Shown piece by piece: positions 1 to 8,147 of a stretch of 8,147 bases of DNA. The notes below the pieces were generated by a model. That model was not told the origin of the DNA, did not search any database, and was given only the letters and a program-made list of their open reading frames with translations. This stretch comes from a virus (taxonomy: Duplodnaviria > Heunggongvirae > Uroviricota > Caudoviricetes). The stretch covers positions 1 to 8,147 of IMG/VR virus record IMGVR_UViG_2529292834_000016; one strand, written 5' to 3'. Within the stretch, counting starts at the first letter, position 1; every line of letters starts with the position of its first letter. Position numbers and translations under genes: made by a program.

Positions 1-276
1 TCGCAAACGACGAAAACTACGCTTTAGCAGCTTAATAACCTGCTTAGAGCCCTCTCTCCCTAGCCTCCGCTCTTAGGACGGGGATCAAGAGAGGTCAAAC
101 CCAAAAGAGATCGCGTGGAAGCCCTGCCTGGGGTTGAAGCGTTAAAACTTAATCAGGCTAGTTTGTTAGTGGCGTGTCCGTCCGCAGCTGGCAAGCGAAT
201 GTAAAGACTGACTAAGCATGTAGTACCGAGGATGTAGGAATTTCGGACGCGGGTTCAACTCCCGCCAGCTCCACCA
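1..276 (+). ncRNA. ssrA: tmRNA (SsrA), 3' ~276 nt; the 5' ~87 nt lie upstream of the window
   Basis: Sequence matches enterobacterial tmRNA as I recall it, from the tag-encoding region through the tRNA-like 3' domain, ending GGTTCAACTCCCGCCAGCTCCACCA at 252-276. Far longer than a typical att-core duplication, so this is the intact gene copy. Confidence 0.95.
3..35 (+). other. ssrA: tmRNA tag-peptide reading frame, ANDENYALAA plus TAA
   Basis: GCA AAC GAC GAA AAC TAC GCT TTA GCA GCT TAA read directly at 3-35; this is the canonical SsrA degradation tag. Confidence 0.9.
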
Positions 277-1781: not shown

Positions 1782-2263
1782 TGCAGCAATCCTCCAACCG
1801 TGTTTTTAATCCCCCCAATCGCAGAGGCAGCAGAGTCCTGCAGGTTGCTGAGCTGGTCACTCAGGCTCCCGAACATGTCAGACAGCGACTCATCAACCCG
1901 TTTGAGGGTGATCGTAAACTCAATGCGCCGGGGCATTCCACTGGCAAAAAACTCCGTCTTTGTCTGGCTCAGACTCTCAATAACAAACATGCCGTAAATG
2001 GTTCCGCTGCCTTCAATCAAAGGCCAGGCTTTGCCCTGCTCTGCCATCAACTCCAGCGCCAGCAATGACAGCCTGCCTCCGGTCACTTCCGGCAGCAGAA
2101 CCCCGGACAGTGTCAGTGAATCATTATCCGGGCCAAGAAACTGCGTTGACGGGCGGCGGTTCACCCGGCTGTTGGCTGCATGTCGCCAGCTGCGCTGATA
2201 CTGCAGCTCCTGATAAGGGACAGTGCGCAACATAAATACATATAAACCCAGCACCATCATCAT
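1778..2263 (-). CDS. U: P2 gpU-like tail protein, ~160 aa
   Basis: Size and position between T and D match P2 gpU. Start ATG overlaps the T stop (ATGA at 2260-2263), with a G-rich SD inside the 3' end of T. Confidence 0.8.
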   Translation of the reverse strand: MMMVLGLYVFMLRTVPYQELQYQRSWRHAANSRVNRRPSTQFLGPDNDSLTLSGVLLPEVTGGRLSLLALELMAEQGKAWPLIEGSGTIYGMFVIESLSQTKTEFFASGMPRRIEFTITLKRVDESLSDMFGSLSDQLSNLQDSAASAIGGIKNTVGGLLQ

Positions 2264-5200
2264 GATTCATACCCCCCCTGATCGCTGAAATTGCTGCGCG
2301 CTTTTGCCCTGGCCCTGCGTTCCCGCTCGTCAAGCTGGCGTGCCACTTCACGGGCAATATCCTGCGCACTCTGTCCCGGCTGCGCGACGATATGAATGGG
2401 CGCATTTATCTCATAACGAATAACTGACGGCGGGCTGTCAGCCTTCACTGGCTGCGTCTGGTATGCCCTCGCAGGCAGACTGAACGGATGAAGCGGAGCC
2501 ACTTCTGCAGGTGTCGCAGCTACCCCCATCACGCCAGCAACGACAGAGGCCAGCGCAGCAGTACGCCGCCTGCTGGTGACATTTGCCGGTCCGTTCACAA
2601 TTTCAGGGCCATTTTCTCCAACAATGCCAAACTGCCCGCGTGGAATGATCCCCCCCGTGTCGTACATCCCTGCGTAAGCCGGGAACCCGCCTGGCGGCAG
2701 CACCACTTTGCCGTCACTGTTCACTGTGGCGGATTGCTGCTGCGTGACCTGCGCAGGCAGTTTCGCCTTTGCCGCCTCCTTACTGACAATACCGAGCTTT
2801 TCCAGTAGCCATGACACACCGGATTTAAGAGACTCCAGCGGGTGCATCACCCTATTCAGACCTTCCGCAAGCGCCTCACCAAACCGGCGCCCCATTGCAG
2901 CTGCGCTGTTCAGTTCTTCGGAAGTGGATTTAACCGGCGTAAGTAAATCACTGAACCAGCCCCACAAGGCCTGCACCCTGTCACCAATCCACTGGAACAT
3001 GGGCCTGAGCGGCTCAAAGGCGGCGCTGATGGGCGCTGCAGCGGCTTTGAACCCTTCCACCACGCCCCCCAGAAATGCACTGATGGGCTGCCAGTATTTC
3101 CACACAACCAGCGCCACACCAGCCAGCGCAGCCACAACCAGCCCTATCGGACTGAGCAGCGCACCCAGCATACCGGAAAGACCAGACAGCGCGCCGCGAA
3201 GTAATGCCAGCGGACCAGAAACAAGAAAACACAATACGCCACCGACAGCTGTCAGCCCACCCCGCAACGCCGCCAGCGGGTTCATCACCATACCGATAAC
3301 ATTACGGATACCTGACATACCGACACGGAACACGGCAAGCGGAGCACCTGCCACCGTTTTCAGTGCATTACCCGCTATTCCAACTGAGCGACGCAGGGAA
3401 TTAAGCGGGGCACTCAGCAACCCGACACTACCACCGGATGACGCCATACCCCGACGCAACAGGGAAAGTGGCGCACCTGCCAGCCATGACAGGGCACCGC
3501 CAGTACGTGTTACCGCTGCAGCAACGGAAGGTAATGTTTTTACACCCAGCACAGACAGGCCAAACCGAATCACCGCAATCGGCCCCAGCACAGCAGCCAC
3601 TGCCACGGCAAGTGTACCCAGCCCGACAGTGACAGCCGCCGTAGCCGCCGCCACTTTCATCAGCGTGCCAGCCAGCACGGGGTTCTGCTCCACCCAGCGA
3701 CGCAGCGCCCCGGTCACGCCCTTAACCATGCCCATAATATCCATCAGCGGCTGACGCAACGTTTCCCCCAGACTGCTGAAAGCGTTCTGCGCGCCAGTCT
3801 TAACCAGCAACCACTGCGCAGACAATGAATCCTTGTTAATGTCGGATTCTTTCTGCATGGAGCCATTAGCACCACTGCCTGATGTGAGTTTCAGCTGACG
3901 CTGCAGCTCCGGCAGGTTGTTAGCCAGCTTTGCCGCATCATCGCCAAACTCTTTACCAAAAATCATTGTCATGGCTGACAGGCGTTTATCCTGCGGCAGA
4001 TTGTTGACCTTCTCCAGAACCCGCTGAATGGTGCCCATGGCATCGGTGGTCATCTGCTTTTCAATCTCCGCAGGATTGAGTTTCAGCAGGTTCATACCTT
4101 CAAAGAAGCGTTTACTTTGCATGGTGGCAATGGACAGTTCACGCACCATGGCATTAGAGGCACTGGCGGCAATTTCCGGGGCAGCCCCAAGAGAAAGGAA
4201 TGTTGAACCCAGCGCAGCAGCCTTTCGGAAGTCAAGGCGGTCAGCCACGCCCCCCATACGCTGCAGGACGTTGATAATGTCCCCACCCTTTGACATAGCG
4301 TTATCGTCCAGGTAGTTCAGCGCATCGCCCAGTTGTTCAATATTGCGCGTCGGAACTTTATAGAGCTGCGCGATTTTCCCCAATCCTTCCGCCAGCTCAT
4401 CGGCGGGCAGCTCAAAGGCCGTTGCAGCTTTTGCCGCCGTGGATGCAAAGGCCAGCAGGTCACGTTTCTGGTCCTCAAAGGGATCGTCCTGGTCAGTCAC
4501 GCCCATGCGCGCGCCGCCTTCAACCAGCGCGGCATAGTCTATAGCACCATTCTCCATCGGCAGTTGCTCACTGGCAGCCTTAATGGCATCCTGCATGTCA
4601 TAAAACTGTTTTGTACGGTTGCCGTTATCGTCACGAAGCCCGTTTACCTGCTTTGCCACGCCTTTCATGGCATCTTCCATACTGGCATAGCTCTTAACTG
4701 CAGCCATAACCGGCGCGCCCATTGCCAGCCCCGCTGCCGTGGTGGTGGCCCCGGCTCCTGCAATGCGATCCCTTACCTCAAGACTCCTGGAGTATGCCGC
4801 ACGGGCGGCGTGCATTTTTCGCTGTTGCTCCCCGACACGTCGTAACCTTGCTTCCTGTTCAGAAAGCTGCCTGTTATAACGCATTGTTTCACGGGTAATG
4901 CGGGCCGTCGCGCTGGCGCCATCACTGGCTGAAATACCGGCACGATAAAGCTCTGCACGCACAAGTGCAGTCTGCTGCTGCAGCTTTTTCTGCCGTTCTT
5001 CCAGACGCTGAACAGCCAGCTGTTGACGGCCCAAAGCAACAACCTGCCGTTGAGAAGGCGGCCCCATCGCACCCAGCTCATGACTGAGTAAATTTGCACG
5101 CTGGCGGGCATAGTTCAGCCGGTCGCCCAGTTTCTGATTTTCTGCCTGTAGCTTTCGGAAGCTGTCCAGACTGCTCCCGGCCTGATCAAGCTGCTTTATT

Positions 5201-5325
5201 GCATCGCGGGATTTTTTGACAGCAGCAGCCAGCTCTTTTGAGCTGGCCTGCGCGGATCGAAATGGGCGGGTGAGCTTGTCAACCGCGTTCAGAATCACCT
5301 GCAGACGCAGGCTATTGTCACTCAT
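2260..5325 (-). CDS. T: Tail tape measure protein (gpT-like), 1021 aa
   Basis: Long ORF with an N-terminal coiled-coil-like Q/R/A-rich region, a central Gly/Ala-rich hydrophobic core and a C-terminal GG..IP.G.FGIVGENGPEIV motif typical of tape measures; sits immediately after the E/E' chaperone pair. Confidence 0.9.
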   Translation of the reverse strand: MSDNSLRLQVILNAVDKLTRPFRSAQASSKELAAAVKKSRDAIKQLDQAGSSLDSFRKLQAENQKLGDRLNYARQRANLLSHELGAMGPPSQRQVVALGRQQLAVQRLEERQKKLQQQTALVRAELYRAGISASDGASATARITRETMRYNRQLSEQEARLRRVGEQQRKMHAARAAYSRSLEVRDRIAGAGATTTAAGLAMGAPVMAAVKSYASMEDAMKGVAKQVNGLRDDNGNRTKQFYDMQDAIKAASEQLPMENGAIDYAALVEGGARMGVTDQDDPFEDQKRDLLAFASTAAKAATAFELPADELAEGLGKIAQLYKVPTRNIEQLGDALNYLDDNAMSKGGDIINVLQRMGGVADRLDFRKAAALGSTFLSLGAAPEIAASASNAMVRELSIATMQSKRFFEGMNLLKLNPAEIEKQMTTDAMGTIQRVLEKVNNLPQDKRLSAMTMIFGKEFGDDAAKLANNLPELQRQLKLTSGSGANGSMQKESDINKDSLSAQWLLVKTGAQNAFSSLGETLRQPLMDIMGMVKGVTGALRRWVEQNPVLAGTLMKVAAATAAVTVGLGTLAVAVAAVLGPIAVIRFGLSVLGVKTLPSVAAAVTRTGGALSWLAGAPLSLLRRGMASSGGSVGLLSAPLNSLRRSVGIAGNALKTVAGAPLAVFRVGMSGIRNVIGMVMNPLAALRGGLTAVGGVLCFLVSGPLALLRGALSGLSGMLGALLSPIGLVVAALAGVALVVWKYWQPISAFLGGVVEGFKAAAAPISAAFEPLRPMFQWIGDRVQALWGWFSDLLTPVKSTSEELNSAAAMGRRFGEALAEGLNRVMHPLESLKSGVSWLLEKLGIVSKEAAKAKLPAQVTQQQSATVNSDGKVVLPPGGFPAYAGMYDTGGIIPRGQFGIVGENGPEIVNGPANVTSRRRTAALASVVAGVMGVAATPAEVAPLHPFSLPARAYQTQPVKADSPPSVIRYEINAPIHIVAQPGQSAQDIAREVARQLDERERRARAKARSNFSDQGGYES

Positions 5326-5754
5326 CGCTGGCCCCGCTTCTCTGAATCGCTTTGTGCCGCCACTCCAGCACCTCAGTCAGCGGCATAACGTCAGTGATGG
5401 ACGGCGACCAGTGAAAAATGGTGGCGATATCCGCCACCAGGTCATCAATCGTCAGGCTGTCGGTAAACCGGCAAGCACCGACTTCTTCAACAAAAAAGTC
5501 ACCACCTCGACCGACAGCGCGGTGAGATCGGCGGGGTCCAGTTCAGCCATTTCCTGTGCGGTCAGCGTCGGGGTGGAAATACGCGGGATCACTGTCATCA
5601 TGGCCCCCACGTCCATATCCATAATGGCCTGCAGGCGGGTGCCGCGCAGCGCGCCGGACTGCGGCTTACGCAGCACAATTTCGGTGATTTGGGTTTTACC
5701 GCGCATGATGGGCGTATCCAGTTGTACGGTTTTTTCAGTCAGCTTGTCGTTCAT
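5318..5754 (-). CDS. E': gpE+E' fusion made by programmed -1 frameshift, ~145 aa
   Basis: After a -1 shift at T TTT TTG the frame stays open for 57 codons (VEEVGACRFTDSLTIDDLVADIATIFHWSPSITDVMPLTEVLEWRHKAIQRSGASDE) and stops at TGA 5318-5320, overlapping codons 2-3 of T. Confidence 0.65.
5452..5754 (-). CDS. E: Tail assembly chaperone gpE (zero-frame product), 100 aa
   Basis: Small ORF directly upstream of the tape measure gene; AGGAAA lies upstream of the ATG at 5752-5754; contains a slippery heptamer near its 3' end. Confidence 0.8.
   Translation of the reverse strand: MNDKLTEKTVQLDTPIMRGKTQITEIVLRKPQSGALRGTRLQAIMDMDVGAMMTVIPRISTPTLTAQEMAELDPADLTALSVEVVTFLLKKSVLAGLPTA
5491..5497 (-). other. 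Slippery heptamer T_TTT_TTG (X_XXY_YYZ), programmed -1 frameshift site
   Basis: Minus-strand codons ACT TTT TTG, i.e. Thr86-Phe87-Leu88 of E, place TTTTTTG in the canonical frame. Confidence 0.7.
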
Positions 5755-5779
5755 GTTCGTTTCCTGTTAATCAGATACT

Positions 5780-5797
5780 GGCGCGGATCACCGCGCC
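5780..5797 (-). other. GC-rich stem-loop in the FII-E intergenic region
   Basis: Perfect 7-bp stem GGCGCGG / CCGCGCC with 4-nt loop, 11 nt after the FII stop, not followed by a U-tract. Confidence 0.4.
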
Positions 5798-5808
5798 GTT
5801 AAGTTAAA

Positions 5809-6324
5809 TCAGAGGCCAAGGGCGTTACGGTGCGCTTCCATCAGGTCCACACCGTCAACGATTTCAATCATGTTGACCACATCAACCTCATAGAGCACCT
5901 CGCCGTTAATGGTCAGCTTCGCGTAACTGTTGGTGCTGCTGACTTTGGTGGCGCTACTTTCTCCAGTTTTCCACTCGCCGGAATCCACCTCTTTATGACG
6001 CCCCCGCACAACCAGCTCAACGGCCTGCACTTCGCCGGTATCGTCACGCTGAATAGAGCCGGTAAAACGCAACTGGATACCGTCCACCGTGGCAGCTCCC
6101 ATCTGTTTGAATAACAGCAGTTCGGTGCCGCCGATTGAAAATTCCGTGTCCAGTGCGCCGTCATCCAGCCCCATATCCACATCCACCGCGCCCGGCATAC
6201 CGCCGCCGCGATACTTCTCAAACTTGCGGGTGAATTTCGGCAGGGTCAGGGACTCAACGATCCCCTGCCAGTTGTTCCCGTCGTTGAACAGGTTCAGATG
6301 TTTTAACTTGCGTGGTAATGCCAT
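5809..6324 (-). CDS. FII: Major tail tube protein (gpFII-like), 171 aa
   Basis: N-terminus MALPRKLKHLNLF... and length match P2 FII; AAGGGGGA precedes the ATG; lies 9 nt downstream of the sheath gene. Confidence 0.9.
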   Translation of the reverse strand: MALPRKLKHLNLFNDGNNWQGIVESLTLPKFTRKFEKYRGGGMPGAVDVDMGLDDGALDTEFSIGGTELLLFKQMGAATVDGIQLRFTGSIQRDDTGEVQAVELVVRGRHKEVDSGEWKTGESSATKVSSTNSYAKLTINGEVLYEVDVVNMIEIVDGVDLMEAHRNALGL

Positions 6325-6333
6325 GTATCCCCC

Positions 6334-7506
6334 TTATGCACTGACACGGCTGGCAAAATCGACCAGGTAGCGATCGGTGATGCGCTGGCGCAGCATCAGA
6401 TTTTCAAGCGGCGGCACAGGTGTGTAGTCGTAGTCGATGGTGAGTTTCCCGGCTTTCAGGGAGTCTTTATCGTTCACTGACTCATCCAGCCAGCAGTCTG
6501 CCCCGATGAGGTATCCCTGATTCACCAGGCTGCGTAATTTGGCGCGGATACCTTCGATAATGTCGCGGGCCAGTGACGGATTCAGTGGCTTATCCACCGC
6601 CCACATATGCCCCTCTGCAATCGTGTCAGCCAGCACCTGCGCCGTGCGGGTGTAGTTCTCAAACGCAAACAATGGATCGTCACTGAGGCAGCGGGAACCC
6701 CAGAAGCGGAACCCGTCTTTACAGATCAGCGTGGTGACGTCGTTCTGGTTCAGCAGTCCCGCATCCGTTGCCGGGTCCTGCAGATCCCAGAACACATCAG
6801 CGGAAATACCGGTGACGCCATTCACACCCACGTTGGACAGGGTTTTATGCCAACCGGTCTGTTCGTCGATTTTGGCGCGCAAACCGAGCGCACGTGCAGA
6901 GGCGTAAGCCGTCGCATCGGCTTTTAGCACGGTGTCAAAGTTGATGAAATCAGGCCAGATCAGCATCCCTTCTCGCTGGCTGAAATTGTCCCGGTAAGCA
7001 ATGGCTTCCTCCAGCGTCTTGCAGCCATAGGCAGACAGGTAGGCAAACCCGCGCAGGCTCTGCGCAATACTCATCAGCTCAGTGGCTACCGCCTGCGTGT
7101 CGTGCCCCGGCACACCGAGAATGCGCGGATTAACTTTCAGCTGCGACTGCGCAGAAAGCAGCGCTTTCATCCCCGTTTTTTTACCGTCGGACGTGACGCC
7201 ACCGATAATATTGGAGGTGGTTTCCGCTTCGGTTTCGCCCTGCGCCACGCGCACAACAACCGTTACGGGCTTTGACTGGTCGGCAATCGCATCAAGCGAA
7301 CGGGCCAGCGTGCCGGACTCGCCTGCTTTACCGCTGGCCTCCAGCACATCCGTCAGCAGAACCGGCTTATTGAGAGGGAATACGGACGCATCAGCATCAT
7401 CGCCGGTGCAGACCATGCCCACGATAGCGGTGCTCACCGTGGTGATAGATCGGGTGCCCTCGTTGACTTCAACAACGCGCACCCCGTGGTGGTAATCCTG
7501 AGCCAT
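6334..7506 (-). CDS. FI: Contractile tail sheath protein (gpFI-like), 390 aa
   Basis: Strong similarity along its length to P2 FI as I recall it ([47 protein letters not shown]); AGGAGG lies 8 nt upstream of the ATG at 7504-7506. Confidence 0.93.
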
Positions 7507-7582: not shown

Positions 7583-7600
7583 TGTCCTGTTAATCACACA
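7583..7600 (-). promoter_or_regulatory. Candidate Ogr-dependent late promoter element (TGT-N12-ACA dyad) for the FI operon
   Basis: TGTGTGATTAACAGGACA on the minus strand, centred ~85 bp upstream of the FI ATG, consistent with a -55 activator site plus a ~30-nt leader. No good -35 is present, as expected for activator-dependent P2 late promoters. Confidence 0.5.
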
Positions 7601-8147
7601 ATGTCGCAGGATATTTGCGGTATAACGTTGAGACACCCACATCAAAAATTAAAGCTACCCGCTGCCGTGTTTCACCTGCAGCAATTAACCTGCCTGCCTG
7701 CGCCCATTGTTCTGGCGTCAGTTTTGGTCTTCGCCCTCCGATCCTGCCTTTAGCTCTTGCGGCTTCCAGCCCCGCACGGGTTCGTTCCACTATCAGCTCG
7801 CGTTCCATCTCCGCCAGTGCCCCCATAACGTGAAAGAAAAACCGCCCCATCGGAGTACTGGTGTCTATGCTGTCAGTCAGACTGCGGAAATTAACCCCGC
7901 GCTGTCGGAGTTCTTCTATCAGGGTCACAAGGTGTCGCATGCTTCGCCCCAGCCTGTCGAGTTTCCATACAACCAGCGTGTCTCCCTCTGATAACGTCCT
8001 GAGCAACCTTTTTAGCCCTGGCCTGTCTGCTGTTTTTCCGCTCATTTTGTCCTCAAAAATTAGCTCACATCCTGAACGTTCCAGTGCATCACGCTGCAGC
8101 GCTGTGTTTTGCTCACTTGTTGATACGCGCACATAACCGACTAACAT
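7590..8147 (-). CDS. Serine-recombinase DNA invertase (Hin/Gin/Pin/Cin family), 185 aa, complete
   Basis: MLVGYVRVSTSEQ N-terminus with catalytic Ser, conserved GDTLVVWKLDRLGRS and SLTDSIDTSTPMGRFFFHVMGALAEMERELIVERT, and a C-terminal HTH (VGVSTLYRKY). The start codon is the last 3 nt of the window. Confidence 0.92.
   Translation of the reverse strand: MLVGYVRVSTSEQNTALQRDALERSGCELIFEDKMSGKTADRPGLKRLLRTLSEGDTLVVWKLDRLGRSMRHLVTLIEELRQRGVNFRSLTDSIDTSTPMGRFFFHVMGALAEMERELIVERTRAGLEAARAKGRIGGRRPKLTPEQWAQAGRLIAAGETRQRVALIFDVGVSTLYRKYPATLCD

What the first reader, a model, noticed from the sequence alone, without database searches (positions are those of the whole stretch)
7590..8147. DNA invertase at the P2 Z/fun moron position implies an invertible tail-fibre switch just beyond the window
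A complete Gin/Pin/Cin-like invertase lies immediately upstream of sheath gene FI, in the same orientation as the tail operon. In P2 that slot between tail-fibre gene G and FI holds the Z/fun moron and no invertase. In Mu, P1 and e14 the invertase gene borders the segment it inverts, which carries alternative tail-fibre C-termini. The gene starts at 8147, so the invertible segment and crossover sites should lie just past the window end, making this prophage a likely host-range phase-variable P2-like element.
Basis: partly seen in the sequence, partly recalled or inferred. Interest (0 to 1): 0.6.

Follow-up and report, generated by a model that had tools for sequence, protein, structure and literature searches.

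The report
Tail-fibre inversion switch in P2-like prophage
The gene is a genuine Gin/Cin-type DNA invertase in a P2-like E. coli prophage, and the predicted flip-flop tail-fibre segment does lie just past the window, but this arrangement is already documented for Fels-2 and other P2-like prophages, so it is ordinary.

Summary
Window 7590-8147 (minus strand) is a complete 185-aa serine recombinase with Resolvase and HTH_7 domains. It is 75% identical to Mu Gin, 79% to P1 Cin and 81% to the Fels-2 invertase, and it lies 83 bp upstream of sheath gene FI.

The window is 100% identical to an E. coli draft contig that ends 68 bp past the window, exactly at the central AA of a gix/cix-like site. A sibling prophage (99.975% identical) reads through. 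It has two 26-bp sites with inverted cores (TT and AA) bounding a 1489-bp segment that carries two alternative fibre C-termini, each with its own assembly gene.

The same segment occurs inverted (99.2% identical) in other E. coli genomes, with half-sites swapped exactly as predicted. An in-silico flip gives an intact 463-aa alternative fibre. Assembly breaks at the cores suggest mixed orientations within cultures.

Host-range change, Fis dependence and enzyme activity are inferred, not shown.

This is not new. Fels-2 has the identical layout. Inversions in P2-like prophages have been shown experimentally (PMC4272514, PMC7953296). Invertases in the Z/fun hotspot are noted in bioRxiv 10.1101/2024.10.15.618418. 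Interest is low.

The parts
7590..8147 (-). DNA invertase gene (185 aa; Gin/Cin/Pin/Hin subfamily of small serine recombinases). It is identical to RefSeq WP_001397632.1, which is annotated as 'recombinase family protein' in E. coli E7476.
   Evidence: ORF. Resolvase plus HTH_7 domains. 75% identical to Gin, 79% to Cin, 81% to the Fels-2 invertase. The exact protein is listed in 176 blocks of the collection and translates identically in E7476 locus L009.
7743..8141 (-). Catalytic (resolvase N-terminal) domain, aa 3-135. The catalytic Ser9 codon TCA is at 8121-8123.
   Evidence: Pfam PF00239, E=7.5e-53. S9, Y5 and R7 checked. Alignment to the Gin structure.
7605..7736 (-). C-terminal helix-turn-helix DNA-binding domain (aa 138-181), which in this family reads the 12-bp half-sites.
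   Evidence: Pfam PF02796, E=1.1e-13. Matches the Hin DNA-binding domain 1HCR.
8058..8129 (-). Stretch homologous to the annotated P1 cin recombinational (Fis) enhancer, nt 19-90 of the gene. This is a candidate enhancer only.
   Evidence: P1 enhancer annotation. 79% identical to it. Third-codon-position conservation is 0.51 against 0.39 elsewhere, but the stretch is not more conserved than the rest of the gene against Mu or Fels-2. Inconclusive.
7583..7600 (-). TGT-N12-ACA dyad (TGTGTGATTAACAGGACA), the Ogr-type activator site of late promoter P_F for FI. It overlaps the invertase stop codon and marks the invertase as lying outside the F operon.
   Evidence: the centre is 85.5 bp from base 7506, the first base of the FI ATG. 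The P2 activator site is annotated in the equivalent position, with its centre 83 bp before the FI ATG. Alignment.
6334..7506 (-). Tail sheath gene FI (context; first gene of the F operon, FI-FII-E/E'-T-U-D).
   Evidence: Pfam Phage_sheath_1, Phage_sheath_1C and Gp18_domIII_N. RefSeq annotation of relatives.
1..276 (+). 3' part of ssrA (tmRNA), the chromosomal attachment locus at the ogr end of the prophage (context).
   Evidence: Rfam RF00023, 183 bits, model positions 91-374, cut at the 5' end by the window edge. ssrA is annotated at this place in relatives.

Best explanation
The gene encodes a Gin/Cin-type DNA invertase of a Fels-2-like (P2-like, Peduoviridae) prophage integrated at ssrA of E. 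coli.

The enzyme binds two 26-bp imperfectly dyad-symmetric sites whose 2-bp cores are in inverted orientation.
- One site (TTCTCCCAATTG AA CGTTTAAGAAAA) lies 43-68 bp upstream of its own ATG, just outside the window.
- The other (TTCTACAATACC TT GGTTTAAGGGCA) lies inside the tail-fibre gene at the junction of the constant and variable parts.

Cleavage and strand exchange at the cores flips a 1489-bp segment. This fuses the constant 350-aa N-terminal part of the fibre either to SvA (102 aa, followed by assembly gene U) or to SvB (113 aa, followed by U').

A lysogenic population would therefore release two kinds of virions with different receptor-binding tips.

Shown here: enzyme family, the sites, the segment, frame-preserving fusions, and the natural occurrence of both orientations with breakpoints at the cores.

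Inferred: that the enzyme is active in the source strain, that it needs Fis and an enhancer in its own 5' end, and that the two tips confer different host ranges.
For: Enzyme.

The source contig is identical to the window and ends at the AA core. So does an independent Logan assembly (L015), although there is no repeat at that point.

Sites and gene layout in sibling locus L014.

Against L014, the segment is 99.2% identical in inverted alignment and 57% in direct alignment in L009 and L011. It is 98.3-99.8% identical in direct alignment in L002, L004, L005 and L008.

The half-sites in the flipped loci are exactly the predicted recombinants (reproduced in silico).

The in-silico flip gives an intact 463-aa fibre that is 97.8% identical to the fibre encoded in E7476.

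Upstream of the invertase, conservation across 15 loci stops exactly at the AA core.

A matrix built only from Mu, P1 and Fels-2 sites ranks these two sites first and second in 15 kb: 18.9 and 13.5 bits, against a mean shuffle maximum of 10.2.

L022, which carries a related cassette, is a 1778-bp contig running exactly from TT to AA.

The geometry is identical to Mu and the layout identical to Fels-2.

Published evidence for the kind: PMC7953296, PMC4272514 and bioRxiv 10.1101/2024.10.15.618418.
Against: The segment is not in the window or on the source contig. Its content for the source strain is taken from a sibling prophage that differs from the window at 2 of 7900 bases.

The site next to the invertase scores only 13.5 bits on the independent matrix, within reach of the largest shuffle maximum (17.2). 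Its inner half, AATTG in place of AAACC, is a poor match.

No clear sigma-70 promoter was found for the invertase.

The enhancer-equivalent stretch is not clearly under extra constraint.

Assembly breaks are indirect evidence of within-culture mixing. No reads were examined.
Confidence: 0.88

Rival explanations
1. The switch is a frozen relic in the source strain. The invertase or its sites no longer work. The opposite orientations seen in different genomes record old events, and the contig breaks are assembler artefacts.
For: No read-level data were examined. L014 and one further contig with the same tape-measure protein assemble straight through the segment. The inner half-site next to the invertase is degenerate. 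No strong promoter was found.
Against: The protein is intact with all checked catalytic residues, and the exact protein is listed in 176 blocks of the collection. Two independent assemblies stop at the very base where the orientations would diverge, with no repeat there. A related cassette assembles as a stand-alone TT...AA contig. Segments that are 99.2% identical exist in both orientations, so the inversions are recent. Homologous P2-like prophage switches were shown to be active by sequencing and PCR (PMC4272514).
Confidence: 0.08
2. The biologically important role is on the host side rather than in phage host range. Either the invertase acts in trans on other invertible segments in the genome, or one orientation yields a fibre-like protein that blocks adsorption of other phages, as reported for PinQ and e14.
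For: PinQ of the Qin prophage inverts the e14 P segment and creates StfE2, which blocks T2 adsorption (PMC12529663). Goldberg et al. cite a report that two invertases contribute to Salmonella flagellar phase variation. A promoter-like match at 8120-8147 (+) points from the invertase 5' end into the silent cassette.
Against: The prophage relatives carry complete late-gene sets, so the simple phage-side reading is sufficient. The promoter-like match is 9 of 12, with 0.5 expected by chance. The silent cassette has no start codon of its own at the junction. Nothing here tests trans action or defence. This reading is compatible with the main explanation rather than exclusive of it.
Confidence: 0.04

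Closest known systems
Fels-2 prophage of Salmonella Typhimurium LT2 (Felsduovirus): invertase STM2702 (called fin in PMC7953296) and its tail-fibre segment
   Same: Identical gene order: H - G - inverted G' - inverted H' - invertase - FI - FII - E - T. The invertase is 81% identical. A gix-like site lies next to the invertase (TTCGCCTAAACC GA GGTTTATGAAAA). The segment is inverted between LT2 and LT7 (PMC7953296).
   Different: Different host species, different Sv/U cassettes, and different core dinucleotides (GA in Fels-2, AA/TT here). The segment here is shorter, 1.49 kb.
Phage Mu Gin / G segment
   Same: S(c) - Sv - U - U' - Sv' - site - invertase, with the segment boundary 67 bp upstream of gin against 68 bp here. 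The enzyme is 75% identical. The sites are 26 bp with AAACC-NN-GGTTT centres.
   Different: The Mu G segment is about 3 kb and Mu is an unrelated transposable phage. In Mu gin sits near the genome end, whereas here the gene sits between the two P2-type late operons.
Phage P1 Cin / C segment
   Same: The enzyme is 79% identical. The enhancer is annotated inside the 5' end of cin, and the homologous stretch here is 79% identical. cixL is CAATCCTAAACC TT GGTTTAAGAGAA.
   Different: In P1 the site overlaps the 3' end of cin, so the gene points towards the segment. Here, as in Mu, the gene points away from it.
Invertible loci in P2-like prophages of EPEC E2348/69 (Goldberg et al. 2014, PMC4272514), and the invertase-bearing Z/fun hotspot of P2-like phages (bioRxiv 10.1101/2024.10.15.618418)
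   Same: E. coli P2-like prophages with an invertase beside the tail-fibre genes. Coexisting orientations were shown by sequencing and PCR. The invertase is described as frequent in the Z/fun hotspot, together with inversion of the adjacent genes.
   Different: Whether these are the same prophage lineage was not checked. One EPEC locus is a three-site shufflon, whereas only two sites were found here.

Membership tests
Gin/Cin/Pin/Hin DNA invertases (small serine recombinases) | N-terminal resolvase catalytic domain plus C-terminal HTH_7 DNA-binding domain, about 185-195 aa | tested here: met
   PF00239 at E=7.5e-53 and PF02796 at E=1.1e-13, 185 aa
Gin/Cin/Pin/Hin DNA invertases (small serine recombinases) | Catalytic serine near the N-terminus (Ser9 in Gin) within the conserved YxRVS motif, and close full-length similarity to characterised invertases rather than to resolvases | tested here: met
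   GYVRVST with S9. Gin structure at E=3.6e-87 against gamma-delta resolvase at 3.7e-32. 75% identical to Gin and 79% to Cin.
Gin/Cin/Pin/Hin DNA invertases (small serine recombinases) | Two 26-bp crossover sites (12-bp imperfect inverted half-sites around a 2-bp core) in inverted orientation, flanking the segment | tested here: met
   Found in sibling locus L014 at 5608-5633 and 7099-7124, with cores TT and AA. They are the top two hits of an independent Mu/P1/Fels-2 matrix. The outer half and core are present on the source contig. Neither site is inside the window.
Gin/Cin/Pin/Hin DNA invertases (small serine recombinases) | The segment actually inverts, with exchange at the core dinucleotide | tested here: met
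   The same 1489-bp segment occurs in both orientations in different genomes (99.2% against 57%), with recombinant half-sites. Within-culture mixing is only indirectly indicated by contig ends at the cores.
Gin/Cin/Pin/Hin DNA invertases (small serine recombinases) | Fis-dependent recombinational enhancer, located within the 5' part of the invertase gene in gin, cin and hin | tested here: inconclusive
   The homologous stretch at 8058-8129 is 79% identical to the annotated P1 enhancer. It is not more conserved than the rest of the gene against Mu or Fels-2, and the synonymous-site excess is small. Fis binding cannot be tested with these tools.
Mu G / P1 C / e14 P-type invertible tail-fibre segments | A constant fibre N-terminus outside the segment; two alternative C-termini inside it, each with its own assembly (chaperone) gene, arranged head to head | tested here: met
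   L014: S 4572-5930, U 5932-6372, U' 6344-6766 (-), SvB ORF from 6769 (-). Caudo_TAP and Gp53-like_C domains in relatives. RefSeq annotation.
Mu G / P1 C / e14 P-type invertible tail-fibre segments | Both orientations give an in-frame full-length fibre | tested here: met
   452 aa as found and 463 aa after in-silico inversion. The latter is 97.8% identical to the fibre of E7476.
Mu G / P1 C / e14 P-type invertible tail-fibre segments | The two orientations confer different host ranges | not testable with these tools
   Only indirect evidence: SvA and SvB share 19% identity, and U and U' share 38%.
P2-like (Peduoviridae) prophage, Fels-2 type | Late-gene order FI-FII-E/E'-T-U-D-ogr, with an Ogr-type TGT-N12-ACA late promoter before FI | tested here: met
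   Pfam assignments. Dyad at 7583-7600. P2 reference. Fels-2 reference.

The most novel reading that the evidence does not exclude
The prophage's switch may be co-opted by the host. The invertase could act in trans on other invertible segments of the genome. Alternatively, the 'silent' cassette could be transcribed from the promoter-like sequence inside the invertase 5' end (window 8120-8147, + strand). The resulting fibre-tip protein in lysogens could occlude a surface receptor and block superinfecting phages, which would make this a recombinase-gated defence like PinQ/StfE2.
Probability: 0.04. Interest if true: 0.5.

Novelty: already known. Interest (0 to 1): 0.12.

Why it matters
For annotation, it shows that the 'recombinase family protein' beside FI in this E. 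coli ssrA prophage is the tail-fibre invertase.

It also shows that the inverted 'gp53-like' fragment next to it in relatives is the alternative fibre tip rather than a pseudogene.

It explains why draft assemblies of such strains break 68 bp upstream of the gene.

Biologically it adds one more example of bet-hedging on host range by a temperate phage. It raises no new principle and does not open an unresolved question.

Tried and rejected
(1) The repeat finder for inverted repeats in relatives did not report the crossover sites. The two sites are individually palindromic but share little sequence as an inverted pair. They were found by reading the sequence and by breakpoint comparison.

(2) ARAGORN found no tmRNA in the window because the gene is cut by the window edge. 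Rfam found it.

The 91%-identical representative P0001 belongs to a different cassette. It therefore gave only family-level evidence for stand-alone segment contigs.

(4) A look-up with the exact sheath protein returned only the source contig, so no further samples of this exact prophage could be counted.

(5) Enhancer test by synonymous-site conservation and by G-N13-C scanning: no convincing signal.

(6) The sigma-70 scan found no promoter for the invertase on its own strand. By eye, a TGGCATKAT motif resembling an extended -10 is shared with the Mu and Fels-2 upstream regions (sequences), but this was not tested.

(7) Shufflon (more than two sites): rejected. Only two sites score above background in 15 kb.

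(8) Transposon resolvase reading: rejected. The protein is far closer to invertases than to gamma-delta or Tn3 resolvase, and the context is entirely phage tail genes.

Full report
**Observation**

Window 7590-8147 holds a complete 185-aa ORF on the minus strand. Its ATG is the last three bases of the window.

It has a resolvase catalytic domain (E=7.5e-53) and an HTH_7 domain (E=1.1e-13).

It matches the solved Mu Gin structure at E=3.6e-87, against 3.7e-32 for gamma-delta resolvase. It is 75% identical to Gin and 79% to P1 Cin over the full length. Ser9, Y5, R7, H106 and M114 are in place.

It lies 83 bp upstream of sheath gene FI on the same strand. The rest of the window is the P2-type F operon (FI, FII, E/E', T, U, D), then ogr, then the 3' part of ssrA at 1-276.

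A perfect TGT-N12-ACA dyad at 7583-7600 overlaps the invertase stop codon. Its geometry matches the annotated P2 P_F activator site. The invertase is therefore a separate unit between the two late operons.

**Where the window comes from**

The window is 100% identical to contig APXF01000151.1 of assembly GCA_000356225.2 (L013). The chromosomal flank of that contig is 100% identical to E. coli O6:H16 strains.

That contig ends 68 bp beyond the window, at AACGTTTAAGAAAATG... An independent Logan assembly (L015, ERR15358139) ends at the same base.

A third assembly (L014, ERR14366187) has the identical 1021-aa tape-measure protein and 2 mismatches in 7900 bases. It reads through.

**What lies beyond the window**

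In L014 the order is:
- tail-fibre gene S (452 aa)
- assembly gene U (146 aa)
- inverted assembly gene U' (140 aa)
- an inverted ORF without its own start, encoding a second fibre C-terminus
- the invertase

Two 26-bp sites are visible:
- TTCTACAATACC TT GGTTTAAGGGCA, inside S (L014 5608-5633)
- TTCTCCCAATTG AA CGTTTAAGAAAA, at L014 7099-7124, which is 43-68 bp upstream of the invertase ATG

They have the form of gixL/gixR, cixL and the Fels-2 site, and their 2-bp cores are mutually inverted.

A matrix made only from the Mu, P1 and Fels-2 sites ranks them first and second in 15 kb. They score 18.9 and 13.5 bits, against shuffle maxima of mean 10.2, sd 2.0 and largest 17.2.

There is no third site, and none inside the window.

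Projected onto window numbering:
- the site beside the invertase would be 8202-8227
- the 1489-bp segment would be 8216-9704
- the far site would be 9693-9718

**Evidence that the segment inverts**

Across 15 loci carrying this invertase, conservation upstream of the gene stops exactly at the AA core. To its left there are at least five different inner half-sites.

For the cassette pair of L014, five loci (L002, L004, L005, L008, L014) are in one state. E7476 (L001/L009) and L011 are in the other state. There the inner half-sites are swapped and reverse-complemented exactly as exchange at the cores predicts.

The 1489 bp between the cores are 99.2% identical in inverted alignment to L009 and L011, against 57% in direct alignment. 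They are 98.3-99.8% identical in direct alignment to the first group.

Flipping L014 in silico reproduces the observed sites. It also yields an intact 463-aa fibre that is 97.8% identical to the one encoded in E7476. The two variable tips (102 and 113 aa) share 19% identity, and U and U' share 38%.

The contig ends of L013 and L015 fall on the first base common to both orientations, and no repeat is present there. A related cassette appears as a stand-alone 1778-bp contig running exactly from TT to AA (L022).

These are the signatures a mixed-orientation culture leaves in an assembly graph. They are indirect, because no reads were examined.

**Mechanism**

By homology with Gin, Cin and Hin (established knowledge of the family), dimers bound at the two sites synapse, cleave at the 2-bp cores through Ser9, rotate and religate. 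This normally needs Fis bound to an enhancer in the 5' part of the invertase gene.

The enhancer is annotated at nt 19-90 of cin. The homologous stretch is window 8058-8129 and is 79% identical. I could not show extra constraint on it, so Fis dependence is inferred.

The outcome is a switch between Sc-SvA/U and Sc-SvB/U'. In Mu and P1 the equivalent switch changes host range. Here that step is inferred.

**Comparison with known systems**

Fels-2 has the same layout gene for gene and an invertase 81% identical.

Invertases 82-87% identical to this protein are also encoded in other sequenced phage genomes, most of which also matched the sheath gene region. Examples are pro483, 500465-1, Cartapus, SEN8 and a set of Klebsiella phages.

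Mu has the same geometry, with the segment boundary 67 bp before gin. In P1 the gene points towards the segment instead.

The literature already covers the kind:
- The Fels-2 segment is inverted between LT2 and LT7 next to STM2702 (PMC7953296).
- Coexisting variants in two P2-like prophages of EPEC were shown by sequencing and PCR (PMC4272514).
- A DNA invertase is 'often' present in the Z/fun hotspot of P2-like phages, with inversion of the adjacent genes (bioRxiv 10.1101/2024.10.15.618418).

**Rivals**

A frozen relic is unlikely, given the intact and widely conserved enzyme, near-identical segments in both orientations, and the assembly breaks.

A host-side role (trans action, or receptor blocking as for PinQ/StfE2, PMC12529663) is not excluded. 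Nothing here supports it beyond a weak promoter-like match.

**Verdict**

The feature is a textbook Gin-type tail-fibre switch in the Fels-2 arrangement. It is already known and of low interest beyond correct annotation.

Noticed in passing
just beyond the window (L013 position 1, equivalent to window coordinate 8215); also L015 position 1 and L022 both ends: Draft assemblies break exactly at the 2-bp crossover cores of the invertible segment. The source contig and an independent Logan contig both start at AA, and a related 1778-bp contig runs exactly from TT to AA. This is a practical marker for active invertons in short-read assemblies.
   Followed up: partly
window 8120-8147 (+ strand): A sigma-70-like match (TTGATA-16-TAACAT, 9 of 12; 0.5 expected by chance in the region) lies inside the 5' end of the invertase gene. 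It points outward into the silent fibre cassette, antisense to the invertase.
   Followed up: no
window 7583-7600 (- strand): A perfect TGT-N12-ACA late-promoter (Ogr) dyad overlaps the invertase stop codon. The regulatory site for FI is therefore embedded in the 3' end of the inserted gene, at the same distance from FI as in P2.
   Followed up: yes
window 1-276 (+), and 277-393: The window starts inside ssrA (tmRNA, model positions 91-374). The prophage end and att site must lie between the ssrA 3' end and ogr (394-612). Some relatives (L002, L003, L005, L010) carry an extra 160-aa ORF between ogr and ssrA.
   Followed up: partly
L009 2761-4861, L011 2761-4861 and L001 15388-17488; the same slot in L004/L012 (283 aa), L005/L008 (401 aa), L014 1237-2016 (259 aa, faint DUF2971 hit) and L006 (84 aa): There is a second variable cargo slot between the tail-completion gene (Phage_tail_S) and baseplate gene V. 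In E7476 it holds an AAA ATPase plus a DUF4435 protein, which from memory resembles the PARIS AriA/AriB defence pair. Other relatives hold unrelated ORFs there.
   Followed up: no
window 2260-5325 (-), compared with L008 and L002: The tape-measure gene varies in length among close relatives: 1021 aa here, 978 aa in L008, and a 2778-nt gene in L002. This suggests in-frame deletions in its repetitive central part.
   Followed up: no
L013 29-34 (beyond the window), between the crossover site and the invertase ATG: The source prophage and its two siblings have CCCCCC where all other loci have CCCGCC or CCCGTC. The change is in the region where a -35 element for the invertase would be expected. A TGGCATKAT motif, resembling an extended -10, is shared with the Mu and Fels-2 upstream regions.
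   Followed up: no
L007 8361-10001: In this relative no genes were called between the fibre gene (434 aa) and the invertase, although the segment between the cores is 1826 bp. The cassette may be degraded or simply left uncalled.
   Followed up: no
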